Assembly: GCA_001443395.1 (NCBI GenBank) | Contig: LDXK01000004.1 | Span: 1 to 47,104 of the forward strand | Length of the DNA stretch: 47,104 bases | Reading direction: 5' to 3' | From: a candidate division WWE3 bacterium CSP1-7 | Lineage (GTDB): Bacteria; Patescibacteriota; WWE3; 9FT-COMBO-53-11 | In this document: positions 780 to 34,860 of the stretch, piece by piece | Layout of the letters: each line of letters starts with the position of its first letter | Numbering within the stretch: position 1 is the stretch's first letter | Program-made: the position numbers and the translations under genes | Notes under the pieces: model-generated | What the model was told of the DNA's origin: nothing | Seen by the model: only the letters and a program-made list of their open reading frames with translations | Databases searched by the model: none

Positions 780-1057
780 ACGTGAAAGACCGTCTGTTCA
801 GTTCGATTCAATACGCGACTGGTTGGTTGCTGATTTTGACTTTCGGCTACGGCTTCGTTTTGCCGCTGTTCGTTAATCAACTGCCGACCGTGCCGCTGAT
901 TTTTCCGGTGTTGGTTCTGACCTTCTTCACCCACGCGATGCTGGGAGTGCGTTCCACCACTCGTCGATACCGCCTCTGGCGGAACTGGTTGGATTGGGTT
1001 TTCTTAGCAGTTTGGGGAATTGCCTGTGCCGTTTTTATCAGTGTTTTTTATTTTTGA
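776..1057 (+). CDS. Small hypothetical membrane protein (about 3 TM)
   Basis: GTGA overlap with the upstream stop (translational coupling); three hydrophobic segments. Confidence 0.7.
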   Translation: MNVKDRLFSSIQYATGWLLILTFGYGFVLPLFVNQLPTVPLIFPVLVLTFFTHAMLGVRSTTRRYRLWRNWLDWVFLAVWGIACAVFISVFYF

Positions 1058-11987: not shown

Positions 11988-13620
<1,633 letters not shown>

Positions 13621-13693: not shown

Positions 13694-13770
13694 GGGCGAA
13701 TAGCTCAGTTGGCTAGAGCACTGTCCTGATAAGACAGGGGTCCCTGGTTCGAATCCAGGTTCGCCCACCA
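13694..13770 (+). tRNA. tRNA-Ile (GAT)
   Basis: Full cloverleaf; anticodon arm CTGTC-ctGATaa-GACAG; GGTTCGAATCC; encoded CCA. Confidence 0.97.
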
Positions 13771-22208: not shown

Positions 22209-22226
22209 AGTATAATTAATCTGCCT

Positions 22227-22287
22227 GGGGCTGCTCCGCTCGACGGAGACTTTTAATGGGGAAGTGCAATCCTTCCCGGCTCCACCA
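22227..22287 (+). ncRNA. 61-nt tRNA-like RNA: Ala-identity acceptor stem + T-arm + CCA, no D or anticodon arm
   Basis: GGGGCTG pairs with CGGCTCC (G3:U70) followed by A-CCA. T-arm GGAAG-TGCAATC-CTTCC. One internal hairpin CTCCG-ctcga-CGGAG. TATAAT lies 10 nt upstream. Confidence 0.7.
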
Positions 22288-22291
22288 ACGG

Positions 22292-22366
22292 GGGGACGTA
22301 GCTCAACGGTAGAGCGCCGCATTCGCATTGCGGAGGTTGTGGGTTCGATTCCCATCGTCTCCACCA
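22292..22366 (+). tRNA. tRNA-Ala (CGC)
   Basis: Cloverleaf, G3:U70, anticodon arm CCGCA-ttCGCat-TGCGG, CCA. Confidence 0.96.
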
Positions 22367-22383: not shown

Positions 22384-22458
22384 GGGGACGTAGCTCAACG
22401 GTAGAGCACTTCCATGGCATGGAAGGGGTTGTGGGTTCGATTCCCATCGTCTCCACCA
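22384..22458 (+). tRNA. tRNA-Ala (GGC)
   Basis: Cloverleaf, G3:U70, anticodon arm CTTCC-atGGCat-GGAAG, CCA. Confidence 0.96.
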
Positions 22459-22483: not shown

Positions 22484-24469
22484 TTACTTCTTCTTTAACT
22501 CGTCGAGGACCTTTTTGGCTTCTTCGTATCCCTGGACGCCAGGATCGGAGAGCTGTAGAGCGGTTTCCAACTCCTGGATTGCCAGTGCCTTTTCTCCCAG
22601 TTCCTTGTAGGTTCGGCCAAGGTTGTAATGGGCGTTGGCGAAGTCCGATTTAAGGTTCACGGCGGCCCGGAACTGCTCCGCCGCCAGGTTGTACTGCGCT
22701 AGCTGGAAGTAGAGCCCTCCAAATCCCACCCGAAGGAGAGGGTTGAAAAGGTCCAGATTGATCGCTTTTTGGTAGGAATCGATCGACCATTGCTCGGCGT
22801 CTTTGGCGGCCCCGATCAGAGAACGGTAGATCTGGGCGAGGTTTTCCCAGTTGCCGGCATTGAGCGCATTAAGGTCGGTGGCGATGCGGGCCTCGTTGAT
22901 CGCCTGAGCAACCAGCTGCTTAACCTGCTGCTTATCGGCGTCGGTGGGATTCTCCCGCTTGGCGAGCTCGTTCGCGGTTAGGAAAGCTGTCTGGGAGAGG
23001 GAGAGACGATAGGAGGTTTGCCAGGGCAGAGAAGTAGAGCTCCTGACCTGGTCATTGTAAGCTTGCGCTAGATTATCGGTAGTGCGGGAATGCCGTTGCC
23101 AGTATTCGGCAGCGTAGGCGCGGTAGAGCCACATGAATTCGAGTATCCCTAATCCCATCACGATGAGAAGAGGGATCATGTGTTTCCAGCTAACTCTGTT
23201 AACCCCCGTTCCGGCGGCATCGTTTCCTTGGTCATGAGAGAGGGTACCCAGGGCGATTGCAAGTAACACCGCCGGCAGGATGGTGGCGTTGGTTAAAATG
23301 AATCCAACCAAGACGGCTCCCGCCAAAGGAAGAGTCTCCCATCCTTTTCTCCGGATCGCTTCCCGAACGACAACTACGATTAATATCAGCCACGCTAAGA
23401 TCCCAATAAGCCCTTCCTCGGCGAAAGTGAGGAGATACTCGTTGAGGGGTTTGTCGAAACGGATCGTCCAGAGTTGACTCTGGTTGAAACGCAACGGCTT
23501 GTAACGGGTGAAGTCCGAGAGGAAGGTCGAAGGACCCGATCCCCAAAACGGTTTCTGCCTAAAAGAGGTGGCGGAAACCGACCAGGAATTTCTCAAATCC
23601 AGGGTAACCTCCTGAGGAAAACTGCGGTTGAGGAAAGTGCTTTTGCCGAAGAGCGGGGGCCCAAAAACTATCAACGCGAAAACCAATCCGGCGGCGAGAG
23701 CGCCCAGAATGTGGAATCTGCTTTTGGTCAACGTTGCCAGCGAGCTGGTTAGAACCGTCGTCAGGACAGCGGCGACGAGGGCGAGACCACCGACGGCACT
23801 TCCTAGCAAGGTGAGGACAGCTGTGAATACAAAAAGATCGGCTGTCAGGGCGATCTTGAGCCAGCGATTCTGGGCATCAAGAAGTTTCTTTAGAACTACC
23901 CCCGCAACGGCACCGATGAAGAGAGCCAGAACCGCCGGGGAACCAAGGGGAGTAAAAGTAACGCGGTTGGACCAGTCCTGGCCAAACAGATTCGCTCCGA
24001 AGTATTGTGGCAAGAACAGCAGTGCTCCAACTGTGGCAGAGAAGACAAAAGCCCAGAGCAGGCGCCGCAGGGTTTTCTCGTTGATATGCCAACCGACCAA
24101 GAAGTAGAGAGCGGTAACGATCGTCACCGAGAAGAGCGATGGATGCCAGCGGGCGTACTGCCCGAACAACGAAACAATTCGGCTGTCGGAGAAGATGGTG
24201 GAGACGAGCGTGACTAGCCAGAACACCAGTACCGGAAGATCGAACGGGGAGCGGCGAATACCCAATTTCCCCGTCAGGACCGCTTTCAACGCCCACGCTA
24301 GCGCGCCCAGAGTTACTATGACCGCCAGCAAGATCAGTTTGTTGAACTCGTAGAACTCAACCGTAATCGGGAGAAAGAAAAGCGGCAGGAGAAAAGCCAG
24401 CCCGACGATCTCCCAGTTAATGAATTTTTCCGCCCATTCGGCAACTCGTTCGCGCATTATCTCAACCAT
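22484..24469 (-). CDS. O-antigen ligase / O-oligosaccharyltransferase-like polytopic membrane protein with C-terminal TPRs
   Basis: About 12 TMs, R..W....F.QKPFWGSGPSTF and LNEYLLTFAEEGLIG (Wzy_C-like), TPR tail (AVNLKSDFANAHYNLG). Confidence 0.85.
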   Translation of the reverse strand: MVEIMRERVAEWAEKFINWEIVGLAFLLPLFFLPITVEFYEFNKLILLAVIVTLGALAWALKAVLTGKLGIRRSPFDLPVLVFWLVTLVSTIFSDSRIVSLFGQYARWHPSLFSVTIVTALYFLVGWHINEKTLRRLLWAFVFSATVGALLFLPQYFGANLFGQDWSNRVTFTPLGSPAVLALFIGAVAGVVLKKLLDAQNRWLKIALTADLFVFTAVLTLLGSAVGGLALVAAVLTTVLTSSLATLTKSRFHILGALAAGLVFALIVFGPPLFGKSTFLNRSFPQEVTLDLRNSWSVSATSFRQKPFWGSGPSTFLSDFTRYKPLRFNQSQLWTIRFDKPLNEYLLTFAEEGLIGILAWLILIVVVVREAIRRKGWETLPLAGAVLVGFILTNATILPAVLLAIALGTLSHDQGNDAAGTGVNRVSWKHMIPLLIVMGLGILEFMWLYRAYAAEYWQRHSRTTDNLAQAYNDQVRSSTSLPWQTSYRLSLSQTAFLTANELAKRENPTDADKQQVKQLVAQAINEARIATDLNALNAGNWENLAQIYRSLIGAAKDAEQWSIDSYQKAINLDLFNPLLRVGFGGLYFQLAQYNLAAEQFRAAVNLKSDFANAHYNLGRTYKELGEKALAIQELETALQLSDPGVQGYEEAKKVLDELKKK

Positions 24470-24470
24470 A

Positions 24471-27400
24471 CTAGTTGTTTTCTCCTCCTGTCGTCAACTG
24501 CCCCTCTACCACCCACCAGCTGAAGGGAATATCGACATCCTGCGGTTGGGAAATCGCGACCGTGAATGATTCTTCCGGTTTGAGCTCGATGACCGCCAGA
24601 GGGACCGCGATCGCCACTTTCGGGGTAACGAAAACCCGGGATTTATCCGTAATCATCGAATTAGTAATCAGGATTTGGACTTCCCCAGCCGGAAGAACGG
24701 ACTCTCCGAGAGTTTCCCCCTCAACGGTAAGTTTCTTAATAGTAAGGTTGTCGATAAATGCGATGGCGATTTCCGCGACTTTAACGGTAATCTTCTCAAA
24801 AATTGCTTCCACAGCAACCTTTAAGGTTAGGAAGATTCCCTCATCAGCTTCGATTTGCGGGGTAATAATCTTTTGGGTTATCGGCTCCTTGGGTTGCTCT
24901 AGTGTATCGGTGGGGGAGTCGGTAGCTGGTAGTTCATCGTTCGTAGCAGGGAGTTCTGAATCGGTGGGCTGAAGTTCACTCGTTTCCGTTTCTCCACTTT
25001 GAACTGTTGACTCGGAACTATCAACTACCTCGGCCGCATCCCCCTCGTCGTCGACCACCACCCCCGGATCTCCCCAGCTAACGGCGAGGAAAGCGTCGAT
25101 CCTTCCGACTCCCGAATCCGGGCTCCAGTCTTCTAACGCTTTCGCAACGGAGAATCCCGGTTTGGCGAGTTTCTGGGCCATCCCCGGGTAGGTTCCGGAG
25201 GAAGTGAGGAGATCGCCGGCAGTAATAGCGGGGGAATCGGGAGCGATCTTGACCGGAACTCTTCCTGCCAATCCCACCAGCCGCCGGTCTTCCCGCGGGA
25301 TCCCCAACTCGACTCCCGCTTTAGTGGAGATGATCCCCATGATCTTCGGATCGGAGGTGACAGTAGCCTTCTGGATCTTCGGTACCCCGGCGTCGTCCTT
25401 CTCTCCCGCGATCGCAATCACGTCTCCCGCTTCGATCGAAAGATCACTTGTCGGATACCACTCCGCTAAGTCCGCCCCGAAGACGATTGCTTCCAACCGC
25501 ACGTTCTGGGTCGCGCCGGTGTAGTTGTAGAGTCTTACATTATTATTGTCCACCTGAACTGTCTTGTACCCCGTCTCGTAGTTGAAGTTAACATTGTGTA
25601 ATGTCGGGCGGTAACCGGTGTTGGAGGTCGTCAGAATCGCCCGGTATTGGATGTAATCGTTGGGAGTAGAAGTAATGAAGGACGCGTTCGGATCGGTTAA
25701 GTATCGATCGGTCGTCAGGTTATCAAAGTAAAGGGTGTAGCTGGTTCCCGGAGCAGTAATCCGAAAGTTTCGAACACCGTCGCGTTCGTGGTCGGGGATG
25801 TCGCTAATGTCCCAGTAAATCTTTTGCCAGGTGTTAACGGTGTCAATATGGAAGGACTCTTCGTGCTCAGTCGCGGCGGTTTCGCCGAATCCGAGTTTAA
25901 TCATGCTGCCGGTCACGGAACTACGCACCCACAGCGTAAGATAATCGTAAGGATTAAGATCGGTGGTCCCGATAATCCGCTCGGCATAGGTGTCGGCGTT
26001 GGCGCCGACGGTTAGTTTGGTGAGGTTGCCGGCCGTAGGTTCATCCTCATCTTCGTAATAATCGACATCCCGAGTCACATCCCCGTCCGCGACCGTAAGG
26101 AGGGCGGGATCATTGGCGACCCAGTTGGTATGGGTGTTGGCGTTATCAAGCATTAGCGTGTTGGTCGTGGCGGTGGACGGTTTCCAACTCTCCCAAGTCC
26201 CGTCGGTCGAGTTGTTGCTCTTTCCCGTGCGGGTTTGCAGTTGGACCATTCCGTAGGTATTCAGATCGGCGAGCCAGGTGAGGGGAGTATAGCCGACCGC
26301 GTTGGGAGTAGGGATCTCATCTGAGATAATGAGGCTGTAGTTGTTGCTGGCGGTACTGGCTAATTCTGCTGACGGAGAGGAACTTCCGGAGACGGTAGAA
26401 GCATAGTAAGTCGCGATTCTTCCTACTCCCCCAGTTCCGCCGTTGGTGGTTCCGGCAACTCCGTTTATGCAACCTGTCCCCCCACTTCCTGCGGAAGCAA
26501 TCGTTTTGCTTGTGCCCACATTGATACTATTGCCAACCAATTTGATCGACCCTCCCGCCCCGCCGCCTCCGCCTCCACCATAATCGCCGGCGCCGGCGCA
26601 ACTACTTGATGAGCCGGAGGATCCGTTGCTTTGCAAGTTCCCAGAAACGGTAGTGGAATCGGCCGAGATATAAATTATGCCCCCACCCTTTCCGCCATTA
26701 CCGCTGGTGCCATTGTAGCCACCCCCGCCTCCGCCTCCCGAACCAAAAAAGAGTTTGGTTAAATTACTATCTCCGTAAGTTCCTCCGCCCCCACCGGAAC
26801 CTCGCCCAACAGCGCCCCCATTACCGGAACTGTTGGTGCCACCGTTACTCCCAGCTGAAGTGTAGGCTCCTCCCGCGTTGCCCGGTCCGCCGTTCCCTCC
26901 CGCCCCGCCTCCCGCGATTCCTCCGCCGCCGCCCCCGGATCCACCGGAAGTCGTCGAACCCAAACCGGGAGAGTTTACATTCTCCCCACTCCCACCACCA
27001 CCTCCGCAGTAACCATTTCCGCCGGCGAGGTTACCACCACCGCCCCCGGCCGCGCCAGCCGCACCGGCAGTAGAAGAGGTGATACCACCGACTCCTCCAC
27101 TACCACAGATTGAATCCCCACCGTACCCGCCATAATCTTCGGTTGCTTCGCCAGCCGCTATACCAACACCCCCGGCGTATCCGACAGCATTAGCGTGAAT
27201 CGTCCCGTTGATGTTGGCGGAAACGGAAGCACGGAAGAACATCAATCCGCCCTTGGCGCCATTCCAAGTCGCCGGGAAGAAGTTGATCCCGGTATTGACG
27301 GTCAGAGTGCTGTAATTCGGGACCCGCTGGAGCATAACCCGCTGTGTGCCTTCGGTTGTTCCTAGGTTGGTATCGTCACTAGCACCATTGCCGTAGTATT

Positions 27401-30400
27401 TAGCTTTGGAAGAAGTGAAAGTGACCACGTTGTTGGCGATGCTTTGGATGTGGAGGGTTTCATAGTTTCCGGTGTTGCCAAAGGCGGTGTTGCTTCCTTG
27501 CAGATTAATCAGAAGGATTTCGTCTCCTGGATTCAAACAACCGGTTGAGGGTCCGGTTCCGGAAACTATGGTGGCGGTGTTCGCTGTCAAAGAGGAAACA
27601 TTGTAATTTACCGCGTCTCCACCGTCTAAACAACTTCGACCCGCGACAAGGTTGGTGGCGTTGATATTGGTGCTGGAGGAGACGGTGACGGAACCGTCCG
27701 CGCCGGTGCCCGGGTCAAAATCTCCTTGTTGGGTGACATTGGTCAACCCAATTTCCAAGCGGATGCTCTTGAAGTCGTCCAGCTCGTATTCCGTGATCGC
27801 CAAGCGGCCAGTGAGATCGTACTCGTCCACATTGTTTTGGTTGGCGAGGTGATCATCGATGGTCTTGGATCCGCTTCCGTCGGTGTAGTTGATCCGGACT
27901 TCCGAAAGGGTGGGGGTGTTGAGGATGCTAGTGGTGGTTAAGAGTGCCCGGTACTGGATGTAGCTGTTGGCGGTGGAAGTGATCGCCGAACCGGCATTGT
28001 CAGTCAGATAAACGTCGGAGAACACATTATCCAGATAAATCGTGTTGCTGGCGGTGGTCAGGTTGGTCAAGCGCAGTTTGGTAACCGCATCCCGGTTCGC
28101 GGCGGGGACATCGGAGATGTCCCAGTAGTATTTCTGCCAAACATTCGCGGTGTAAATCGTAATTGACTCTTCCCGTTCGGTCGCGACGGTTTCCCCGAAG
28201 CCGAACCTTAGCGAGGATCCGGCGATGCTCGCTCTGATCCAGAAAGCAAGATAGCGGCGGACGGAGATGTCCACAGGCGAGCCAACGGGAGTGGCTTCGG
28301 CGTATCCGCCGTTGGTGGAAGAGGTTATTTTGGTGATATTGGTCACGGTCGGTTCGTCTTCATCCTCAAAGTAGTTCACATCGCGGGTCACGTCCCCCTC
28401 CGCCACGGTTGCGTTCGTGCCAACCCAATTGGTGTGGGTATCGGCGCTTTCGAGCACTATTCCCTGCGGCCGCCACTCTTGCCAAGTTCCGTCCAAAGAA
28501 TTGCTGGTCGCGCCCGAGCGGGTTTGGAATCGGATTTCGGTGCCGGCAGGCAGATTTTCGGTCCAAGCGATCGTATCGAGGGAAACCGCGCCGGGGGTGG
28601 CGATTTCTTTGGAAGTAAATACTTTATAAGGGTTGAAATCGGCGACGCTGGAGTCGACGGTGTAGGTAGGGCTAGTGCTGCCGCTGATCGTCCCGGCATT
28701 ATAAACCGCGATCCTTCCCGACCCTCCGACCCCTCCTATGTTGGTGGCACCAAAAGAACCATTCTCACACCCGTTTCCTCCGGATCCTCCCGATGCCAGC
28801 ACCTTTGAAGCCCCAAGCGTAAGGTTGTTGCCAACAATTTTGATTGACCCACCAGCTCCGCCCCCGCCTCCACCCGCATATTCTCCTGCACCATCACAAC
28901 TGGTACCGGAGCTGGTGGGGCTCCCGTTGGCGGCATTGCTGGAAATCGTGCCGCTAACCGTGACCGAATCGGCGGCGATATAGACAATTCCACCGCTCGC
29001 TCCGCCCGCCCCTGCCGTTGGTCCGGTGTTATTGTAATCTCCCCCTCCTCCTCCCGCTGCGCCGAAGTAGAGTTTTGTGAGATTGGCATCACCGTAGGTT
29101 CCGCCCCCGCCGCCGGTGACGTAGAAGTTACCAGTATCAACACCCCCGTTACCTGAGCTGTTGGTTCCACCATTTTGTCCTGCTGCCCCACCTCCGCGAG
29201 CCGCTGGAGAAGTACCAAAAGTTCCGTATCCTGCCCCACCGCCACCTCCGATGTTGCCACCCCCTCCCCCGGAACCGCCTTGGGTCGCAGAACCCAAACC
29301 GGCTCCGGCAATAGACGTTCCACCTCCACCACCGCAAGAACCGTTACCTCCGGAGTAGGCCACGTTTTCGTGGCCGATTGCACCCCCTGCCGCTCCGCTA
29401 CCTCCGTTTCCAGCGCCTGAAGCACCCGTGCCCCCAATCCCGCAGAACGCCTCGCCGCCATTTCCGCCTCCGCCGTTTGGCGCAGCGCCGGAAGCCACTC
29501 CCCCCGCCCCTCCTCGATGCCCGATCGCGTTCGCGTTGATTGTGCCGGTGCCGTTAACCGCAACCGCTCCGGTGGCTCTAAAGAACATCACGCCGTTCTT
29601 GGTTCCATTCCAGGTCGCAGGGAAGAAATTGATCGCGGTGTTGACCGTGACCGAGGTGTAGTTGGGAACTCTTTGGAGCATCACTCTTTGAGTTCCTTCC
29701 GCGGTTCCCAGGTTGTTGTCGTCGCTGGCTCCGTCGCCATAGAATTTAGTTTTGGCGGTCGTAAAGTTAACCGTGTTAGTGACCACGCTCAAGACGCGCA
29801 AAGTTTCATAATTACCGACATTTCCGAGAGCGGAGTTCGTCCCGGCTACATTAATTAAGAGAATTTCGTCACCCACCGCCAAACATCCGGCGGAAGGAGT
29901 AGTGGAAAGCGTGGCGGAGGTGGAGGTAAGGGCGGTGGCGCTGTAATTAACCGCATCTCCGCCGTCGGCGCAGGAGCGGCCCACGATCAAGCTGGTGGCG
30001 TTGATGTTGGTGCTGGAAGAGACGGTAATTGCGCCGTCCGCCCCGGTTCCCAAGCTGAATTTGTTGTACTCTAGTTTAAGAGGATCGATCCGAAGAGTGG
30101 ATTGGCTGTCGGCAACATCAAAGGGACTGCGGACGCGATCGGCGTCGATCGTGAAAGTGCCATTGGGGTTGGTGAGGTTGATTCTAACCTTCGAAAGAAC
30201 GGGGGAGTTGAGGACGTTGGTCGTCGAGAGCACCGCCCGATATTGAATGTAATTGTTCGGCGAAGAAGTGATCGTGGATCCGCCACTGGTAACCAGGTAC
30301 TTGTCGGCAGTAACGTTATCAAACCAAATAGTATTGCCGTTGGTAATGCTGGTGATCCGCAGTTTGGTCACGCCGTTGCGCGATCCGGCGGCCACGTTTC

Positions 30401-33400
30401 GAATGTCCCAATAGATCTTTTGCCAGCTTTCGACTTTGTCGATGTAAAAAGTCTTGGTCTGCTCGGTCGCGGCCGCTTCGCCAAAGCCAAGGGTAAGCAC
30501 GTCTCCTCGCGCGCCGCTCCTGATCCAGACGGTGAGGTAATCATAACCGGAGATATCTGTGGAAGAGATTGTCGCTTCGGCGTAGCCGTTCGCGGCCGTG
30601 GCGGTTACTTTCGCCAGATCGCCGGAGTTGGAAACATCTTCATCCTCAAAGTAATCCACATTCCGAGCGACATCCCCTTCTGCCACGGTCGCATTGGTCC
30701 CGGTCCAGTTTGTATGGGTATTGGCGTTTTCCAGCATCAGGGTGTTCGTGCCGGAAACCACCGGCCGCCAGCCCTCCCAAGTCCCGTCGGTGGAATCGAT
30801 GGTGTTGCCGGAGCGGGTTTGGAGTTCAATCTTGCCGTTGGTGTCCAGATTTTCCGTCCAGGAAATCGTGTTGAAGGCGGTCGTGCCGGGGGTATGGATT
30901 TCGTTGGAAACGTAAATGGCGTAGGGGTTGTATTCAAAAGTAGCGGAGGTATAGGCGGGGTCGGTGCTGCCACTGATCGAGGAAGCGTATTTAACGGCAA
31001 CCCTTCCTGATCCTCCCACCCCTCCTTGGTTGGTCGCGCCAGGAGTGCCACTTTCGCAGCCGCTTCCGCCGGCGCCTCCGGTTGAGGTTACCTTGGATGC
31101 CCCAAGCGTGAGGCTGTTGCCGACGATCTTGATCGAACCGCCAGCCCCGCCGCCCCCGCCTCCCGCGTATTCTCCCCCAGCATCACAGCCGCTAGTGGCG
31201 CTGACCCCGGCAACGGCGGTGCTCGAGATTGTGCCGGAAACGGCGACGGAATCGGCGGAGATGTAGATGATGCCCCCTCCTGCCCCGCCGGCACCGCCGG
31301 TGGTTGCGAAGGCCGTGTTGTAATCTCCTCCTCCTCCTCCCGCCGATCCGAAGTAGAGCTTAGTTAGGTTCGCGTCGCCGTAGGTGCCTCCGCCTCCGCC
31401 GGTGGTGTAGGTACCGTATCCTCCGTTTCCGGAGCTGTTGGTTCCTCCGTTCTGGCCGGAACTTGTTCCTCCTGAACGGGAAGCCGGAGAAGTTCCGAAT
31501 GTGCCATACCCCGCACCCCCACCCCCGGCGATGTTGTGCCCGCCCCCGCCCGCACCACCCTGGGTCGCTGAACCTAATCCGGTATTGGTCCCGCTTCCGC
31601 CCCCGCCTCCGCAAGAACCATCCCCACCGTCGTAAGTCGCGACTTCCTGACCAACCCCGCCTCCCGCGGCGCCGTTACCGGCGTTGCCGGTGCCGGAAAC
31701 ACCCGTTCCGCCAATCCCGCAGAACGCCTCGCCGCCGTTACCGCCCCCGCCGGCTGGTGCCGCCCCCGCCGCAGCTCCGCCCGTTCCTCCCCGGTGCCCG
31801 ACCGCATTGGCGTTGATGGTGCCGGTGCCGTTGACCGAAACCGCCCCGGTGGCGCGGAAAAACATCACGCCGCCTTTGATTCCATCCCAAGTCGATGGGA
31901 AGAAGTTGATCCCGGTATTGACAGTGACGCTAGTGTAGTTCGGTACCCTTTGCAGAAGGACCCTCTGGGTTCCCTGGGCGGTGCCGAGGTTGGTATCGTC
32001 GCTGGCGCCGTCGCCGTAGAATTTGGTTTTGGAGTTGGTAAAGGTGACGACGTTGGAGGTGACGCCTTGAACGCGCAGGGTTTCGTAGTTGCCAGTATTG
32101 CCGAAGGCGGAATTTGTTCCTTGCAAGTTAATCAGAAGAACCTCATCGCCGACGTTCAAACAGCCGGAAGATGGCGGGCCGGTGAGAGTCGCATTTGTGG
32201 AAGTCAAGGCGGTGATGTTGTAGTAAACCGCGTCCCCACCGTCGGCGCAGGCGCGACCGGCGATCAAGCTAGTGGAGTTGATGTTGGTGCTGGAAGAAAC
32301 TGTGATCGCCCCGTCCGTGCCTGTTCCAAGGTTGTCTTCTTTGAACTGGAGCTTGACGGAGCTGGTTTTTAGCTTTTGGGTAAAGAGGGGATTAAATTCG
32401 CTCCATAGGTCAAGGTCTTTTGTGGTTGTAAAGTTCTCGATCGTCCGCCATTGGCCGAGGAGGCTGTCGTAGTACCAGGCGGTGAGGGAGAGGTCGTTGG
32501 TCGATTGATTGTGGGCGATCTCAACGTAGCCGGCGTTGGCGAGGGCGGTGTCGGTGGCGGTGTATTTCGTCATGTCGGTCGCCAGCCGCTGGAAGGCCCC
32601 GTTGGCGTAGACGAAGAGCTTGTCATTGTCGGAGTCGTAGTAGATCGTGCCTTCGGTCGTCGATCCGGAGGAAGCGACCGGAGTGAGAAAGATCTCCCCC
32701 CCGCTGACGGTCAGGTCTCCCGCCAGGGTGAGCCCTCCCCCCGTGTCGAAATCCGTCCCGTCGTTGCCGATGTTGCTGATGATGCTGGCATTCATGTCCA
32801 GCGCCTCCGTCACCGTCGCCCCGCCCCAGGCGAGGGTGCCGTTGATGTCAACCGTTGTTCCTGAGTCGGTCGTGAGGGTGCCGGTGCCGGTGTAAGAGTC
32901 ATCGGTATCGGAGCGGAGGAACTGGTCGGAGTTGAGGTCATCGAAGAGGTCGGCGTTCAGGTTGGCGACGAGGGTCGTGGAAGCGACGGTGAGGGGAGCG
33001 GTGCCGGTGGCGACGGTCGAGATCAGCTGGGTGCCTTCCACGGTCGAGGCGGAGATCAGATTGGAATCGAAATAGACTGGAAAGCTTTCAAACCGGTAGC
33101 GGTCCAGGGTGGCATCCCAGCGGAGAACGGCGTTGGGAGAGGAGGTGCCCCGGATGAAGGTGAGGGTGGCGTCCTGGATATCAGCGGAGGCGTTGTCGGT
33201 GTTGATCGAGAAATCGGAAGAGATCGTGCCGGAGATATCGCTCGCTCCAGCCGAAAGGGTATTGACGACGATCTCATCGAAGTAACCGATGTCCCAGCGC
33301 ACCCCGGCTGAGCCGATGTCGTATTGAGCATTCAGGCTGGGAATGATGTCGGAATCGATGGCACCGTTAAAGATCACCAGATCGGTGACCGCGTTGCCCA

Positions 33401-34715
33401 GGTTGATCGCTGTGGAATTGACCGTGAGGGTCGTTCCGTCGGCGATTGTTAGCGTGCCGGCGGTGAAACTGTCGCTGGTGTTGGAGCGGAGGAACTGGAG
33501 AGAATCTAAACCGTCGAGGGTATCGGCGTCCGATCCGGCGATGGAGGTGATCGTGATCGTATTCGCCCCGTCGTCGGGAGTAATGACGATATTCGCTCCC
33601 GCGATCAGATCGATGTTTCCTTCGTTGTTGGAGACCCCGTCTAGGGAGGAGAGGATCACCGGTGTTCCGGTGAAATTGCTCCAATTGAGGTAGTAATCGC
33701 CACCCTGCCCTTCCAGGGTGTCGGCATCGCCGCCGGTGGCGATCCCTCCGCCTCCTCCTCCCGTTCCCGTCACTCCGGTGGTGGTTCCGGAAACGGTGAG
33801 GTTTTCGACGTTTAATGAATCTACTTTGATGCTTCCAAAAATTCCTTCCTTTGCTTCAAGAGAATCGGCGACAATCGCGACGGCGCGAAGATCTTTGAGC
33901 GAAGCCACACCCAACGGGCTAATAAAGTAATCGCCGGTTTCGCCAAAGAACAGAGTACCGAGAAATCTTCCCGTATCGAAAAGGAAAGGAATTTTGGAAT
34001 GCAGCCATCTGGTTAAATCGAATTCACTATACTCTAGTACATCATTTGTATCGACAATCGGATCGGCAATCTGGGCGATTCCCAAGAAATTTCCAGGCAC
34101 GATTCGCTCGACGTATTGGTCCCAGAATCCGCCAAAGATTCTTTGAATGCGTTCACGGGTGAGGTCCGAAAATCCCAGCGCCAAAATTGCAATTGTCCCA
34201 AAAACCAACGCAAGCGTAAGGGTGTGGCTGGCAATTTTTGCCAAAATCGGTTCATGGGCGGGCAGGGGAACGCGAATCATGTTGGTCAAGAAATGGGAAA
34301 TTTGGCTTAGAAGTTCGTTGTGCTTACGCTCCTCCCCTAAAATTATTGGGTCCAGACTGGGGGGAGTTGGTGATGGTGGCGGGGGAGGCGGGAGAAGCGG
34401 AGGGAGAACCGGGATTGGCGTGGCTGGCTCTGGAGTAATTGCGGCAGAAGGCACTATTTGGGGGTTTTCCAGTTCTTTTTTGATCCTTCCATTATCCCAG
34501 CCCTGTTTCTTGAGTTCGGCGATTTTCTTCAGACTTTCTAGGACTTTCTCCGGATAATGACCGACGGTGGAAGGAGCGTCGGGGTAAGGAAGGCGACGAG
34601 ACATATAAGGCAAGAGCCCGATCTTGGTGTAGTAGCGGAGAGTGTGGTAGCCCACGCCGGAGCGTTTGACTATCTCACTTACGGGAATGAGTTTTTCAAG
34701 CAGGTCGTTTTCCAT
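24471..34715 (-). CDS. Giant (about 3,414 aa) membrane-anchored fibre/adhesin-like protein with N-terminal MerR-type HTH
   Basis: Order: MerR HTH (VSEIVKRSGVGYHTLRYYTKIGLL), Pro-rich linker, one TM, ADTLDG/NLNAD fibre motifs, three ~770-aa Gly-rich repeats, C-terminal GADLAEWY...GRVPVK domain. ATG at 34715 preferred; the ORF is open from TTG at 34751. Confidence 0.9.
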   Translation of the reverse strand: MENDLLEKLIPVSEIVKRSGVGYHTLRYYTKIGLLPYMSRRLPYPDAPSTVGHYPEKVLESLKKIAELKKQGWDNGRIKKELENPQIVPSAAITPEPATPIPVLPPLLPPPPPPSPTPPSLDPIILGEERKHNELLSQISHFLTNMIRVPLPAHEPILAKIASHTLTLALVFGTIAILALGFSDLTRERIQRIFGGFWDQYVERIVPGNFLGIAQIADPIVDTNDVLEYSEFDLTRWLHSKIPFLFDTGRFLGTLFFGETGDYFISPLGVASLKDLRAVAIVADSLEAKEGIFGSIKVDSLNVENLTVSGTTTGVTGTGGGGGGIATGGDADTLEGQGGDYYLNWSNFTGTPVILSSLDGVSNNEGNIDLIAGANIVITPDDGANTITITSIAGSDADTLDGLDSLQFLRSNTSDSFTAGTLTIADGTTLTVNSTAINLGNAVTDLVIFNGAIDSDIIPSLNAQYDIGSAGVRWDIGYFDEIVVNTLSAGASDISGTISSDFSINTDNASADIQDATLTFIRGTSSPNAVLRWDATLDRYRFESFPVYFDSNLISASTVEGTQLISTVATGTAPLTVASTTLVANLNADLFDDLNSDQFLRSDTDDSYTGTGTLTTDSGTTVDINGTLAWGGATVTEALDMNASIISNIGNDGTDFDTGGGLTLAGDLTVSGGEIFLTPVASSGSTTEGTIYYDSDNDKLFVYANGAFQRLATDMTKYTATDTALANAGYVEIAHNQSTNDLSLTAWYYDSLLGQWRTIENFTTTKDLDLWSEFNPLFTQKLKTSSVKLQFKEDNLGTGTDGAITVSSSTNINSTSLIAGRACADGGDAVYYNITALTSTNATLTGPPSSGCLNVGDEVLLINLQGTNSAFGNTGNYETLRVQGVTSNVVTFTNSKTKFYGDGASDDTNLGTAQGTQRVLLQRVPNYTSVTVNTGINFFPSTWDGIKGGVMFFRATGAVSVNGTGTINANAVGHRGGTGGAAAGAAPAGGGGNGGEAFCGIGGTGVSGTGNAGNGAAGGGVGQEVATYDGGDGSCGGGGGSGTNTGLGSATQGGAGGGGHNIAGGGGAGYGTFGTSPASRSGGTSSGQNGGTNSSGNGGYGTYTTGGGGGTYGDANLTKLYFGSAGGGGGDYNTAFATTGGAGGAGGGIIYISADSVAVSGTISSTAVAGVSATSGCDAGGEYAGGGGGGAGGSIKIVGNSLTLGASKVTSTGGAGGSGCESGTPGATNQGGVGGSGRVAVKYASSISGSTDPAYTSATFEYNPYAIYVSNEIHTPGTTAFNTISWTENLDTNGKIELQTRSGNTIDSTDGTWEGWRPVVSGTNTLMLENANTHTNWTGTNATVAEGDVARNVDYFEDEDVSNSGDLAKVTATAANGYAEATISSTDISGYDYLTVWIRSGARGDVLTLGFGEAAATEQTKTFYIDKVESWQKIYWDIRNVAAGSRNGVTKLRITSITNGNTIWFDNVTADKYLVTSGGSTITSSPNNYIQYRAVLSTTNVLNSPVLSKVRINLTNPNGTFTIDADRVRSPFDVADSQSTLRIDPLKLEYNKFSLGTGADGAITVSSSTNINATSLIVGRSCADGGDAVNYSATALTSTSATLSTTPSAGCLAVGDEILLINVAGTNSALGNVGNYETLRVLSVVTNTVNFTTAKTKFYGDGASDDNNLGTAEGTQRVMLQRVPNYTSVTVNTAINFFPATWNGTKNGVMFFRATGAVAVNGTGTINANAIGHRGGAGGVASGAAPNGGGGNGGEAFCGIGGTGASGAGNGGSGAAGGAIGHENVAYSGGNGSCGGGGGTSIAGAGLGSATQGGSGGGGGNIGGGGGAGYGTFGTSPAARGGGAAGQNGGTNSSGNGGVDTGNFYVTGGGGGTYGDANLTKLYFGAAGGGGGDYNNTGPTAGAGGASGGIVYIAADSVTVSGTISSNAANGSPTSSGTSCDGAGEYAGGGGGGAGGSIKIVGNNLTLGASKVLASGGSGGNGCENGSFGATNIGGVGGSGRIAVYNAGTISGSTSPTYTVDSSVADFNPYKVFTSKEIATPGAVSLDTIAWTENLPAGTEIRFQTRSGATSNSLDGTWQEWRPQGIVLESADTHTNWVGTNATVAEGDVTRDVNYFEDEDEPTVTNITKITSSTNGGYAEATPVGSPVDISVRRYLAFWIRASIAGSSLRFGFGETVATEREESITIYTANVWQKYYWDISDVPAANRDAVTKLRLTNLTTASNTIYLDNVFSDVYLTDNAGSAITSTANSYIQYRALLTTTSILNTPTLSEVRINYTDGSGSKTIDDHLANQNNVDEYDLTGRLAITEYELDDFKSIRLEIGLTNVTQQGDFDPGTGADGSVTVSSSTNINATNLVAGRSCLDGGDAVNYNVSSLTANTATIVSGTGPSTGCLNPGDEILLINLQGSNTAFGNTGNYETLHIQSIANNVVTFTSSKAKYYGNGASDDTNLGTTEGTQRVMLQRVPNYSTLTVNTGINFFPATWNGAKGGLMFFRASVSANINGTIHANAVGYAGGVGIAAGEATEDYGGYGGDSICGSGGVGGITSSTAGAAGAAGGGGGNLAGGNGYCGGGGGSGENVNSPGLGSTTSGGSGGGGGGIAGGGAGGNGGPGNAGGAYTSAGSNGGTNSSGNGGAVGRGSGGGGGTYGDSNLTKLFFGSGGGGGGGYNGTSGNGGKGGGIIYISADSTTVSGNLQSNGSSGSSSSCAGAGDYGGGGGGGAGGSIKLVGNSINVGTSKTIASAGSGGTGCINGVAGTTNGGTGGVGRIATYYASTVSGSSSPSAELASTASNNYSLIISDEIPTPNAVGYTPLTWLADLNTYGMVQLQTRTGKSNNSTDGTWESWKPSTATTNTLMLDNANTHTNWVANDPALLTVADGDVTRDVDYYEDEDEPTAGNLTKLTVGANADTYAERIIGTTDLNPYDYLTLWVRSSVTGSMIKLGFGETAATEHEESFHIDTVNTWQKIYWDISDIPDHERDGVRNFRITAPGTSYTLYFDNLTTDRYLTDPNASFITSTPNDYIQYRAILTTSNTGYRPTLHNVNFNYETGYKTVQVDNNNVRLYNYTGATQNVRLEAIVFGADLAEWYPTSDLSIEAGDVIAIAGEKDDAGVPKIQKATVTSDPKIMGIISTKAGVELGIPREDRRLVGLAGRVPVKIAPDSPAITAGDLLTSSGTYPGMAQKLAKPGFSVAKALEDWSPDSGVGRIDAFLAVSWGDPGVVVDDEGDAAEVVDSSESTVQSGETETSELQPTDSELPATNDELPATDSPTDTLEQPKEPITQKIITPQIEADEGIFLTLKVAVEAIFEKITVKVAEIAIAFIDNLTIKKLTVEGETLGESVLPAGEVQILITNSMITDKSRVFVTPKVAIAVPLAVIELKPEESFTVAISQPQDVDIPFSWWVVEGQLTTGGENN
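25580..32335 (-). repeat. Three large internal repeats within the giant gene
   Basis: GTG(A/T)DG(A/S)(I/V)TVSSSTNIN...GRxCxDGGDAV recurs near 32281, 30004 and 27664 (spacings 2277 and 2340 nt). Each unit ends in YIQYRA.L.T...P.L..V. Confidence 0.9.
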
Positions 34716-34860
34716 GGCAGGCCTTAGGTCCTTCCGTAACTTTTCCCCCAAGTGAAGGAGGATTAGTTATCGGTCTACTTTCCCACTACGTTATAGGTTA
34801 CGATATCTCTTCTCCCTATAACCAAGCCGTTTCTGAGTACTTACCGTCACGGCAAGAAAA

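What the first reader, a model, noticed from the sequence alone, without database searches (positions are those of the whole stretch)
22211..22287. 61-nt alanine-accepting mini-tRNA (tmRNA tRNA-like-domain look-alike) heading a tRNA-Ala operon
Seen: after a perfect TATAAT comes GGGGCTG-CTCCGCTCGACGGAG-ACTTTTAATGG-GGAAG-TGCAATC-CTTCC-CGGCTCC-A-CCA, ending 4 nt before tRNA-Ala(CGC). It has a 7-bp acceptor stem with G3:U70 and A73, a 5-bp/7-nt T-arm and encoded CCA. Only 26 nt lie between them, with no D-arm and no U33 anticodon loop. The 5' end (GGGGCTG...TCGACGG) resembles the tmRNA 5' consensus, and its stems differ from those of the adjacent tRNA-Ala genes. Established: G3:U70 minihelices are charged by AlaRS, and tmRNAs lacking the mRNA domain are known from jakobid and oomycete mitochondria. 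Inference: it could be a tag-less tmRNA for ribosome rescue, a non-ribosomal Ala donor, or a decayed tRNA-Ala(TGC). Intact pairing in both stems argues for selection.
Basis: partly seen in the sequence, partly recalled or inferred. Interest (0 to 1): 0.8.

Follow-up and report, generated by a model that had tools for sequence, protein, structure and literature searches.

The report
Anticodon-less alanine mini-tRNA gene
A 61-base RNA gene that keeps only the alanine-accepting end of a tRNA is conserved at the head of the alanine-tRNA operon in one family of tiny-genome bacteria in which the protein that tmRNA needs to rescue ribosomes was not found, so it probably carries alanine for some job other than reading codons.

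Summary
Window 22227-22287 (+) is a 61-nt RNA with a 7-bp acceptor stem (G3:U70, A73, encoded CCA), a 5-bp hairpin, an 11-nt linker and a 5-bp/7-nt T arm. A TATAAT lies 10 nt upstream and tRNA-Ala(CGC) starts 4 nt downstream.

It is a real gene. It occurs in 7 of 10 genomes of the window's order (one family, f1) and on 27 metagenome contigs. Every copy has an upstream TATAAT, and every copy with enough downstream sequence is followed by tRNA-Ala. Six stem pairs show compensatory changes. The acceptor stem is invariant.

It is neither a canonical tRNA nor a demonstrable tmRNA: Rfam tmRNA scores 12.4 bits against a cut-off of 47. SmpB was found in 0 of 10 f1 genomes but in 114 of 124 other genomes of the class, so ordinary trans-translation is unlikely.

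Six f1 genomes, not this one, carry a separate 133-137-nt ORF-less tmRNA-like RNA.

The T loop reads UG, not UU, as in staphylococcal cell-wall tRNA-Gly. Fem-type transferases are present in all 10 f1 genomes, and this genome's AlaRS lacks C-Ala.

Best reading: a non-decoding alanyl carrier. This function is inferred and there is no RNA data.

The parts
22211..22216 (+). -10 box TATAAT of the operon promoter; no -35 match
   Evidence: Read. A TATAAT lies within 60 nt upstream in 34 of 34 copies: 8-13 nt before G1 in 31 and 31 nt before it in 3. The full sigma-70 scan finds no two-hexamer promoter.
22227..22287 (+). 61-nt anticodon-less alanine-type tRNA-like RNA (the finding)
   Evidence: R1 scores 91.4 bits here. 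Homologues are in 7 of 10 genomes of the order and on 27 of 28 metagenome pattern hits.
22227..22233 (+). Acceptor stem 5' strand GGGGCUG. It pairs with 22277-22283 (CGGCUCC), giving G3:U70 and U6:G67.
   Evidence: All 7 pairs are invariant in 15 of 15 distinct sequences. Positions 5, 6, 67 and 68 were left free in the search pattern.
22234..22248 (+). Helix 2: a 5-bp hairpin CUCCG/CGGAG with loop CUCGA, occupying the place of the D arm
   Evidence: 4 of 5 pairs show changes on both sides. The loop keeps YGA at its 3' side.
22249..22259 (+). Conserved single-stranded linker ACUUUUAAUGG (ACWUUUAAUGG in the family)
   Evidence: It is invariant except for W in the 7 genome copies that were found without the pattern. 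The 12 nt before the T stem match class tmRNAs at 2-7 of 12 (30 of 31 at 4-7). They match this genome's tRNAs at 0-5 of 12.
22260..22276 (+). T arm: stem GGAAG/CUUCC and loop UGCAAUC (U54 G55 ... A58)
   Evidence: 2 of 5 stem pairs are compensatory. Across the copies the loop starts with UG, has a purine at 57 and an A at 58, while position 56 varies.
22284..22287 (+). Discriminator A73 and encoded CCA
   Evidence: Read. 45 of 46 tRNAs of the genome also encode CCA.
22292..22366 (+). tRNA-Ala(CGC), co-oriented, 4 nt downstream
   Evidence: ARAGORN; Rfam tRNA 71.9 bits.
22384..22458 (+). tRNA-Ala(GGC), last gene of the operon, followed by a T run
   Evidence: ARAGORN; Rfam tRNA 66.4 bits; sequence read.

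Best explanation
The element is a genuine small RNA gene. It is transcribed from its own -10 box as the first gene of a mini-RNA / tRNA-Ala / tRNA-Ala operon.

Its coaxial acceptor/T minihelix with encoded CCA should let the tRNA-processing enzymes cut it out. Its invariant G1-C72, G2-C71, G3:U70, G4-C69 and A73 should let alanyl-tRNA synthetase charge it. In this genome that enzyme is a 592-aa form without the elbow-binding C-Ala domain.

Three features argue against decoding or classical trans-translation:
- it has no anticodon arm;
- it has no D-loop GG, and its T loop has lost U55/C56;
- no SmpB was found in the family.

I therefore read it as a dedicated, non-decoding alanyl carrier. The most likely consumers are the Fem-type aminoacyl-tRNA-dependent peptidoglycan transferases that the genome encodes. 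This would parallel the staphylococcal 'non-proteogenic' tRNA-Gly.

Shown: gene reality, structure, operon context, identity elements, and the failure to find SmpB in any family genome. Inferred: maturation, alanylation and the consumer.

Its ancestry is open. It may be a tmRNA tRNA-like domain or a remodelled duplicate of the adjacent tRNA-Ala.
For: Reality and structure:
- It is found in 7 of 10 genomes of the order at 73-91 bits. Outside the family the best hit in 124 genomes is 27.9 bits, and most of those weak hits are of tRNA length (72-77 nt).
- The three family genomes without it also showed no tRNA-Ala(GGC/CGC) in the BLAST places I fetched.
- A pattern scan of 185,579 species gave 5 hits, all in the family. 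The metagenome scan gave 27 genuine hits of 28.
- 34 of 34 copies have an upstream TATAAT. In 32 of 32 copies with at least 100 nt of downstream sequence the next gene is tRNA-Ala (GGC in 28, CGC in 4).
- Covariation: 6 compensatory pairs and 99.2% of cells paired.

Alanine identity:
- G3:U70 with A73 occurs only in the 3 tRNA-Ala among 46 tRNAs.

Non-decoding use:
- SmpB is in 0 of 10 family genomes and in 114 of 124 others. A class-specific SmpB HMM run with --max over all six-frame ORFs of G000 gives a best E of 2.6.
- No RqcH was found, and only one RF-1-domain protein of 354 aa, so no ArfB.
- The T loop starts with UG in every distinct copy. S. aureus non-proteogenic tRNA-Gly genes carry TGC/TGT instead of TTC, bind EF-Tu weakly and are preferred by FmhB (PMC7826273; abstract and passages read).

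Possible consumer:
- FemAB-family genes are in 10 of 10 family genomes. G000 has two adjacent ones. The 337-aa one matches FmhB at 5e-14 and W. viridescens FemX at 3e-5.
- FemX accepts alanyl RNA helices, with G2-C71 as its main determinant (PMC2655667; abstract only). G2-C71 is invariant here.

Synthetase:
- AlaRS is 592 aa, with a catalytic domain and tRNA_SAD but no C-terminal DHHA1/C-Ala domain.
Against: - There is no expression, processing or charging data. No RNA run holds the locus.
- FemAB genes are nearly universal in the class (127 of 134), while the mini-RNA is confined to one family, so the two do not co-vary. The amino-acid specificity of these Fem proteins is unknown.
- No Fem gene lies near the element. 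Its neighbours are rho, a LysM-M23 peptidase and a Wzy_C/TPR protein.
- The strongly conserved 11-nt linker has no explanation in this model. No complementary target turned up in the genome.
- All family genomes are incomplete MAGs (81-92%; the window's genome 80%), so the absence of smpB rests on 10 concordant negatives, not on a closed genome.
- The family also keeps a 133-137-nt tmRNA-like RNA. This hints at some SmpB-independent use of tmRNA-like RNAs that could apply to the 61-mer too.
Confidence: 0.4

Rival explanations
1. Tag-less mini-tmRNA. The RNA would be the shrunken descendant of ssrA, reduced to its tRNA-like domain. After alanylation it would still enter stalled ribosomes and donate one alanine or trigger release, either without SmpB or with an unrecognised substitute. 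Mitochondrial tRNA-like-domain-only tmRNAs are thought to work this way, but with SmpB.
For: - The architecture is acceptor plus T arm with no anticodon arm.
- RF00023 aligns end to end exactly on 22227-22287 (12.4 bits, E 0.0045 in a 401-nt search).
- The hairpin loop holds UYGA, as do the 5' regions of the class tmRNAs and of the family's 133-137-nt RNA.
- The 12 nt before the T stem match class tmRNAs at 2-7 of 12 (10 of 31 at 7). They match the three tRNA-Ala at 0-1 of 12.
- Family f15 tmRNAs, which have SmpB, carry the same odd T loop UGCAAUU/UGCGAUU.
- No known rescue system (SmpB, ArfB, RqcH) was found in G000.
- tRNA-like-domain-only ssrA genes are on record for phage DS6A, and tmRNA homologues for oomycete mitochondria (PMC4131195; first part and passages read).
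Against: - SmpB was found in 0 of 10 family genomes. [quoted passage not shown]
- The scores lie far below the gathering score of 47.
- The acceptor stem GGGGCUG/CGGCUCC is one change from the family's tRNA-Ala(GGC) (GGGGCCG/CGGCUCC). It is two pairs from the class tmRNA stem GGGGAUG/CAUCUCC.
- f15 is not the closest family by Rho identity (67-70%, against 74% for f11), so the shared T loop may be convergent.
- A better ssrA candidate of 133-137 nt (53-68 bits) exists in six family genomes, and four of them also have the 61-mer.
- U55/C56 are lost and there is no D-loop GG. By established tRNA structure knowledge, these residues build the elbow that the ribosome contacts.
Confidence: 0.15
2. 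Regulatory mimic or cis-acting leader. The tRNA-like RNA would not be used as an alanine donor. It could titrate or report on AlaRS, EF-Tu or RNase P, as a tRNA-like-domain-only RNA can titrate SmpB. Alternatively it could serve as a structured 5' module that stabilises and directs processing of the tRNA-Ala transcript.
For: - It is always the first gene behind the promoter and always directly linked to tRNA-Ala: 32 of 32 copies that could be tested.
- A molecule that is little more than the tmRNA tRNA-like domain strongly inhibits tmRNA whether or not it is chargeable (PMC4131195, passage citing Mao et al. 2009).
- Short tmRNA-like RNAs of 70-146 nt coexist with full tmRNA and SmpB in other families of the class.
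- The invariant 11-nt linker suggests a sequence-specific partner.
Against: - A mere leader needs neither an invariant G3:U70, A73 and CCA nor a T arm.
- SmpB, the known target of tRNA-like-domain decoys, was not found in the family.
- No complementary RNA target for the linker was found in G000.
Confidence: 0.2
3. Transcription attenuator. Helix 2 followed by the U-rich linker would be an intrinsic terminator that controls read-through into the tRNA-Ala genes.
For: The terminator scan flags CTCCGCTCGACGGAG followed by ACTTTTAATG.
Against: - One site was found against a mean of 1.2 in shuffles.
- The stem has only 5 pairs, and many copies have only three U (ACAUUUAAU).
- This does not explain the invariant acceptor stem, T arm and CCA.
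Confidence: 0.04
4. Decaying pseudogene of tRNA-Ala or ssrA, or an assembly artefact.
For: It is missed by ARAGORN and by the Rfam tRNA model, and it is short.
Against: - It is conserved across 5 genera with compensatory changes.
- It is 100% identical between G000 and G002 while the 158 nt around it are 82% identical.
- Independent DNA runs contain it unchanged.
- All three tRNA-Ala isoacceptors are present elsewhere or beside it.
Confidence: 0.02

Closest known systems
tmRNA tRNA-like domain, and tRNA-like-domain-only ssrA genes (jakobid and oomycete mitochondria; mycobacteriophage DS6A)
   Same: It has an acceptor stem with G3:U70, A73 and CCA stacked on a T arm, and no anticodon arm. A UYGA motif follows the acceptor strand. 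A CUUUYAA-like stretch precedes the T stem, as in the tmRNAs of the same class.
   Different: - There is no SmpB in the lineage.
- The Rfam score is 12.4 against 47.
- The T loop is UGCAAUC, not UUCGAWU.
- There is no D-loop GG, no P2 helix, no pseudoknots and no tag frame.
- It sits in a tRNA-Ala operon, not beside smpB.
- The details about jakobid RNAs are recalled, not read. Oomycete and DS6A come from PMC4131195.
Non-proteogenic tRNA-Gly of staphylococci (donors for FmhB/FemA/FemB)
   Same: It would be a dedicated aminoacyl carrier kept out of translation. The T loop has UG(C/U) instead of UUC and no pseudouridine site. The usual D/T elbow features are lost. Fem-family transferases are encoded in the genome.
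   Different: The staphylococcal RNAs are full cloverleaf tRNAs with an anticodon and carry glycine. Here the anticodon arm is gone and the identity is alanine. Use by a Fem enzyme is not shown.
Alanine minihelix / microhelix (synthetic AlaRS substrates) and the FemX(Wv) helix substrates
   Same: It is a 12-bp acceptor/T coaxial helix with G3:U70. G2-C71, the FemX(Wv) determinant, is present (PMC2655667, abstract).
   Different: Those are laboratory constructs. This is a natural gene with an extra 26-nt conserved insert.
The family's own 133-137-nt tmRNA-like RNA (loci L110-L115)
   Same: It is also alanine-type (G3:U70, A73), anticodon-less and ORF-less, and lives in the same SmpB-less family. 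It contains UCGACG after the acceptor strand.
   Different: - That RNA passes the Rfam tmRNA cut-off (53-68 bits).
- It has a canonical T loop, a D-loop analogue with GG and an 11-bp P2 helix.
- It does not encode CCA.
- It lies at another locus, and was not found in G000.

Membership tests
tmRNA (Rfam RF00023 / ssrA) | Score at or above the curated gathering score (47 bits) | tested here: not met
   12.4 bits on 22227-22287. tmRNA_permuted gives 15.3 bits and beta_tmRNA 7.4 bits.
tmRNA (Rfam RF00023 / ssrA) | tRNA-like domain with an alanine acceptor stem (G3:U70), A73 and CCA | tested here: met
   Sequence read; invariant in 15 of 15 distinct copies.
tmRNA (Rfam RF00023 / ssrA) | Canonical T loop (UUCGAWU) and a D-loop analogue with GG | tested here: not met
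   The T loop is UGCAAUC. Only a 5-bp hairpin follows the acceptor strand. 30 of the 31 class tmRNAs printed have a canonical UUCRANU T loop; G041 of family f15 does not.
tmRNA (Rfam RF00023 / ssrA) | mRNA-like domain with resume codon, tag frame and pseudoknots | tested here: not met
   Only 26 nt lie between the acceptor strand and the T stem.
tmRNA (Rfam RF00023 / ssrA) | Partner protein SmpB encoded by the organism | tested here: not met
   PF01668 is found in 0 of 10 family genomes and in 114 of 124 others. The class-specific HMM gives a best E of 2.6 in G000. All the genomes are incomplete MAGs.
tRNA-like-domain-only tmRNA homologues (mitochondrial, phage DS6A) | Little more than the tRNA-like domain, no tag frame | tested here: met
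   Architecture read. The comparison is with the description in PMC4131195. No sequence comparison with those RNAs was made.
tRNA-like-domain-only tmRNA homologues (mitochondrial, phage DS6A) | SmpB available in the same compartment or host | tested here: not met
Canonical tRNA-Ala | Cloverleaf with D arm and an anticodon arm bearing an Ala anticodon | tested here: not met
   Not called by ARAGORN or by Rfam tRNA at the gathering threshold, nor listed among hits with E up to 10. The 26-nt insert cannot form both arms.
Canonical tRNA-Ala | AlaRS identity set (G3:U70, A73, G1-C72, G2-C71) | tested here: met
   The set is unique to tRNA-Ala among the 46 tRNAs.
Non-proteogenic cell-wall tRNAs (staphylococcal type) | T loop with UGY in place of UUC | tested here: met
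   UG is invariant in the distinct copies. The defining feature is taken from PMC7826273.
Non-proteogenic cell-wall tRNAs (staphylococcal type) | Fem-family transferase in the genome | tested here: met
   Two FemAB genes in G000, with PDB matches to FmhB and FemX. 10 of 10 family genomes have them.
Non-proteogenic cell-wall tRNAs (staphylococcal type) | Weak EF-Tu binding and preferential use by the Fem enzyme | not testable with these tools
   Needs biochemistry.
Non-proteogenic cell-wall tRNAs (staphylococcal type) | Full cloverleaf with anticodon | tested here: not met
Intrinsic terminator / attenuator | G+C-rich stem followed by a U run, more frequent than chance | tested here: inconclusive
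   One site at 22234-22248, against a mean of 1.2 in shuffles. The U run has 3-4 U.

The most novel reading that the evidence does not exclude
In a bacterial family where neither SmpB nor a full-length tmRNA was found, two anticodon-less alanine-accepting RNAs are kept. These are the 61-mer, co-expressed with tRNA-Ala, and a 133-137-nt ORF-less tmRNA-like RNA. Together they may mark a previously unknown, SmpB-independent use of alanyl-tRNA-like RNAs. One possibility is a protein-free or new-factor route that adds alanine to stalled nascent chains. The other is the first natural aminoacyl carrier RNA that has shed its anticodon arm entirely to feed cell-wall synthesis.
Probability: 0.3. Interest if true: 0.85.

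Novelty: new variant of a known kind. Interest (0 to 1): 0.7.

Why it matters
Three things would follow if the reading is right.

- It would be a natural 'alanine minihelix': an RNA that has kept only what AlaRS needs. That bears on the old idea that the acceptor/T half of tRNA is an autonomous, older module.
- It comes from a lineage that seems to have given up SmpB and full-length tmRNA, a pair long regarded as near-universal in bacteria. In the 2014 survey read here, none of 22 deficient genomes lacked both (PMC4131195). How these cells free stalled ribosomes is therefore an open and testable question.
- If it feeds Fem-type transferases, the partition between 'proteogenic' and 'cell-wall' tRNAs known from staphylococci would have been taken to its logical end in an unrelated phylum.

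The RNA is missed by ARAGORN and by Rfam at its gathering thresholds.

Tried and rejected
- **Expression data.** The look-up of sequencing runs listed no RNA holder. The one run labelled metatranscriptomic (X20) gave a single contig over tRNA-Ala(GGC) only. Nothing can be said about expression.
- **Phage origin.** The pattern scan of viral contigs gave 0 hits.
- **RNA target for the linker.** A search of G000 for complements of the 11-nt linker gave one 10-mer at C1:137037 and nothing in rRNA, which is about chance level.
- **Pairing with the 133-137-nt RNA.** I looked at pairing between the linker and the CCCCUUAAAG region by eye only. It is partial and shows no covariation, so I dropped it.
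- **Other alanyl-tRNA users in G000.** LPG_synthase_C (PF09924) and Leu/Phe-transferase (PF03588) were not found. RqcH (PF05833) gave only sub-threshold hits.
- **T loop as a marker of ancestry.** Family f15 tmRNAs share the odd T loop, but Rho identity does not place f15 nearest to the family. This is left open.
- **Conserved protein neighbour.** The neighbouring genes differ between genomes, apart from rho within about 3 kb.
- **Hit at G000:C1:77794-77923.** This tmRNA-model hit is a leader hairpin plus tRNA-Pro, not a tRNA-like domain.
- **Literature.** Searches for tmRNA or SmpB together with Saccharibacteria, Patescibacteria or Candidate Phyla Radiation found no paper on this RNA or on SmpB loss in the group. 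I judged this from listings and abstracts only. Subscription journals and supplementary files were not searched.
Full report
**What is there.** The window is contig C4 of a 572-kb, 7-contig, 80%-complete genome with 53-58% G+C per contig. Five public records that share the element carry titles naming Patescibacteria or Candidatus Saccharibacteria MAGs.

- GGGGCUG (22227-22233);
- hairpin CUCCG-CUCGA-CGGAG (22234-22248);
- linker ACUUUUAAUGG (22249-22259);
- T arm GGAAG-UGCAAUC-CUUCC (22260-22276);
- CGGCUCC (22277-22283), A73 (22284), CCA (22285-22287).

TATAAT lies at 22211-22216. tRNA-Ala(CGC) begins 4 nt after the CCA and tRNA-Ala(GGC) follows. ARAGORN and the Rfam tRNA model do not call the element. 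The MFE fold gives the three helices, minus the seventh acceptor pair and plus one T-stem pair, but its energy is only marginally better than that of shuffles (z = -1.98).

**It is a real gene.**
- BLAST with the locus, and then a covariance model (R1) built on 7 copies, find the element at 73-91 bits in 7 of the 10 genomes of the order, which holds a single family, f1.
- In the three genomes without it, the BLAST places I fetched held other tRNAs or tRNA-Ala(TGC). No tRNA-Ala(GGC/CGC) operon was seen there either.
- In the other 124 genomes of the class, the best R1 hit is 27.9 bits, and most of the weak hits are of tRNA length.
- A degenerate pattern found 5 records among 185,579 species, all from f1. 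It found 28 metagenome contigs, 27 of them genuine, and none in viral contigs.
- All 34 copies have a TATAAT within 60 nt upstream: 8-13 nt before G1 in 31 copies and 31 nt before it in 3.
- In 32 of 32 copies with at least 100 nt of downstream sequence, the next gene is tRNA-Ala, 1-60 nt away (GGC in 28, CGC in 4).
- On the 15 distinct sequences aligned to the model, 99.2% of pair cells are standard pairs. Six of 17 pairs change on both sides (4 of 5 in the hairpin, 2 of 5 in the T stem). Sliding the partners by one column drops pairing to 63-69%. This alignment was fitted to the model, which favours the structure, but the MAFFT alignment of 7 genomes gave the same picture.
- The acceptor stem never varies, although positions 5, 6, 67 and 68 were free in the search pattern.
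- The 61 nt are identical between G000 and G002, while the surrounding 158 nt are 82% identical.
- Contigs of three other DNA runs carry the element with no differences listed. Assembly collapse and pseudogene decay are therefore excluded.

**It is not a decayed tRNA-Ala(TGC).** The genome has 46 tRNAs, including tRNA-Ala(TGC) at C1:129926-130000. In four loci from three other families (G019 and G045 of f11, G014 of f6, G013 of f5), all with rho on the same contig, the tRNA-Ala genes are preceded by ordinary intergenic or coding sequence with no tRNA or tmRNA. The element is an innovation of this family at the head of the operon.

**Alanine identity.** G3:U70 with A73 occurs in 3 of the 46 tRNAs, all of them tRNA-Ala. 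The 61-mer has the same set plus G1-C72, G2-C71 and G4-C69. That AlaRS charges minihelices and tmRNA through these elements is established knowledge, not something tested here. The genome's AlaRS is only 592 aa: it has the catalytic domain and tRNA_SAD but no C-terminal DHHA1/C-Ala domain. From recall, C-Ala binds the tRNA elbow. An enzyme without it should depend on the acceptor stem alone. This is inference.

**Relation to tmRNA.**

In favour:
- RF00023 aligns end to end on exactly 22227-22287.
- The loop motif UYGA is shared with the 5' regions of the class tmRNAs.
- The 12 nt before the T stem match 31 class tmRNAs at 2-7 of 12 (10 of them at 7, 30 at 4 or more). They match the genome's tRNAs at 0-5 of 12, and the three tRNA-Ala at 0-1.

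Against:
- The score is 12.4 bits against a cut-off of 47 (15.3 for the permuted model).
- The T loop is UGCAAUC, while 30 of the 31 class tmRNAs I printed have UUCRANU.
- The acceptor stem differs by one base from the family's tRNA-Ala(GGC) stem GGGGCCG/CGGCUCC, but by two pairs from the class tmRNA stem.

The tmRNAs of family f15, which has SmpB, have the same odd T loop. However, f15 is not the nearest family by Rho identity. Ancestry therefore stays open between a tmRNA tRNA-like domain and a remodelled tandem copy of tRNA-Ala.

**The family lacks the trans-translation partner.**
- SmpB (PF01668) is found in 114 of 124 genomes of the other 17 families and in 0 of the 10 f1 genomes.
- An HMM built from 10 SmpB proteins of the class and run with --max over all six-frame ORFs of G000 gives a best E of 2.6.
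- Matches to RF00023 over the cut-off occur in 114 of 134 genomes. Six of these are f1 genomes, where the match is only 133-137 nt long (53-68 bits). It has a canonical tmRNA 5' end, an 11-bp P2 helix, two inner hairpins, a canonical T arm, G3:U70 and no reading frame.
- That RNA was not found in G000 or G002. Four genomes have both it and the 61-mer.
- G000 also shows no RqcH and no ArfB-sized RF-1 protein.

The 2014 survey of complete genomes found that none of 22 deficient strains lacked both tmRNA and SmpB. It reports a tRNA-like-domain-only ssrA in mycobacteriophage DS6A and tmRNA homologues in oomycete mitochondria that have an imported SmpB (PMC4131195; first part and passages read).

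**What the structure suggests.** Across the copies the T loop keeps U54, R57 and A58, has G at position 55, and varies at position 56. By textbook tRNA structure (recalled), U54-A58 and R57 build the T-loop fold, while residues 55 and 56 bind the D-loop GG. The RNA has no such GG. It therefore keeps a T-loop fold but not a tRNA elbow.

Staphylococcal non-proteogenic tRNA-Gly genes likewise carry TGC/TGT instead of TTC. They bind EF-Tu weakly, do not serve translation and are preferred by the Fem transferase FmhB (PMC7826273; abstract and passages read). FemX of Weissella accepts alanyl RNA helices, with G2-C71 as its main determinant (PMC2655667; abstract read).

FemAB-family genes are present in 127 of 134 class genomes and in 10 of 10 f1 genomes. 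G000 has two adjacent ones. The 337-aa protein matches FmhB (E 5e-14) and FemX (E 3e-5) among solved structures.

**Most likely mechanism (inferred).** Transcription starts a few bases before G1. RNase P and 3' trimming release a 61-nt RNA ending in CCA. AlaRS charges it. Lacking an anticodon arm, an elbow and SmpB, it stays off the ribosomal A site and delivers alanine to a non-ribosomal acceptor, most plausibly through the Fem-type transferases.

Weak points:
- The Fem genes do not co-vary with the RNA.
- Their amino-acid specificity is unknown.
- The invariant linker is unexplained.
- There is no expression evidence.

**Rivals.**
- An SmpB-independent rescue RNA.
- A mimic or cis-acting leader.
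- An attenuator. The scan flags the hairpin plus the U-rich linker, but at chance frequency.
- A pseudogene or artefact, which is excluded.

**Novelty.** No paper on this RNA, or on SmpB loss in this group, turned up in five searches. It is not in Rfam 15. I rate it a new variant of a known kind, namely tRNA-like-domain-like or non-proteogenic tRNA-like RNAs.

Noticed in passing
L110:1001-1137(-), L111:1001-1136(-), L112:1001-1133(-), L113:1001-1133(-), L114:1001-1136(-), L115:1001-1135(+): Six genomes of the same SmpB-less family carry a 133-137-nt tmRNA-like RNA (RF00023, 53-68 bits). It has a canonical tRNA-like domain, an 11-bp P2 helix and two inner hairpins, but no tag frame and no encoded CCA. 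Eight pairs are compensatory. It was not found in the window's genome.
   Followed up: partly
about 150 nt directly 3' of that RNA, e.g. L110:~845-1000(-) and L112:~850-1000(-): A second conserved structured element follows it. A 9-bp stem GCAAUCCGG/CCGGAUUGC closes it, and it contains a T-arm-like UUGGGUUCGAAUCCCAA. No Rfam family matches at E up to 0.01. In G008 the alaS gene starts just downstream.
   Followed up: partly
L153:201-282(+), L156:143-212(-), L157:201-270(+), L158:201-271(+), L155:201-327(-), L154:201-346(+): Other families of the class have full tmRNA and SmpB, yet also hold short tmRNA-like RNAs of 70-146 nt with G3:U70. Four of the six end in ACCA; G040 ends ACAA and G051 AUUA. 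They could be tRNA-like-domain decoys or mobile-element genes. ARAGORN calls the 146-nt one a tmRNA with a 14-residue tag.
   Followed up: partly
L053:1182-1547(+) and L159:101-465(-): The full-length tmRNAs of family f15 have a non-canonical T loop (UGCAAUU / UGCGAUU) and an altered 5' region, although SmpB is present.
   Followed up: partly
L160:1018-2796(-) = G000:C1: Alanyl-tRNA synthetase is only 592 aa. It has the catalytic domain and tRNA_SAD but no C-Ala/DHHA1 domain. The overlapping downstream 357-aa ORF has no Pfam match.
   Followed up: partly
G000:C1:208432-208505(+): A tRNA-like gene that ARAGORN cannot assign. It has a 6-nt 'anticodon' loop and discriminator U, and CCA is not encoded.
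   Followed up: no
window 12015-13456 and 13694-13770: The 16S rRNA match spans only 1442 nt for the full 1533-position model. tRNA-Ile(GAT) follows it, but neither tRNA-Ala(TGC) nor 23S rRNA is present anywhere in the 47-kb window, so the rRNA genes appear unlinked.
   Followed up: no
window 24471-34751(-): A single 3426-aa open reading frame lies next to a Wzy_C/TPR protein (22484-24469, -).
   Followed up: no
G000:C3:53473-53549: tRNA-Ile with the anticodon TAT is present, an uncommon way to read AUA.
   Followed up: no
L115 after position 1133: The sequence directly after the 135-nt RNA of G001 reads N (withheld by the operators). I did not pursue it.
   Followed up: no
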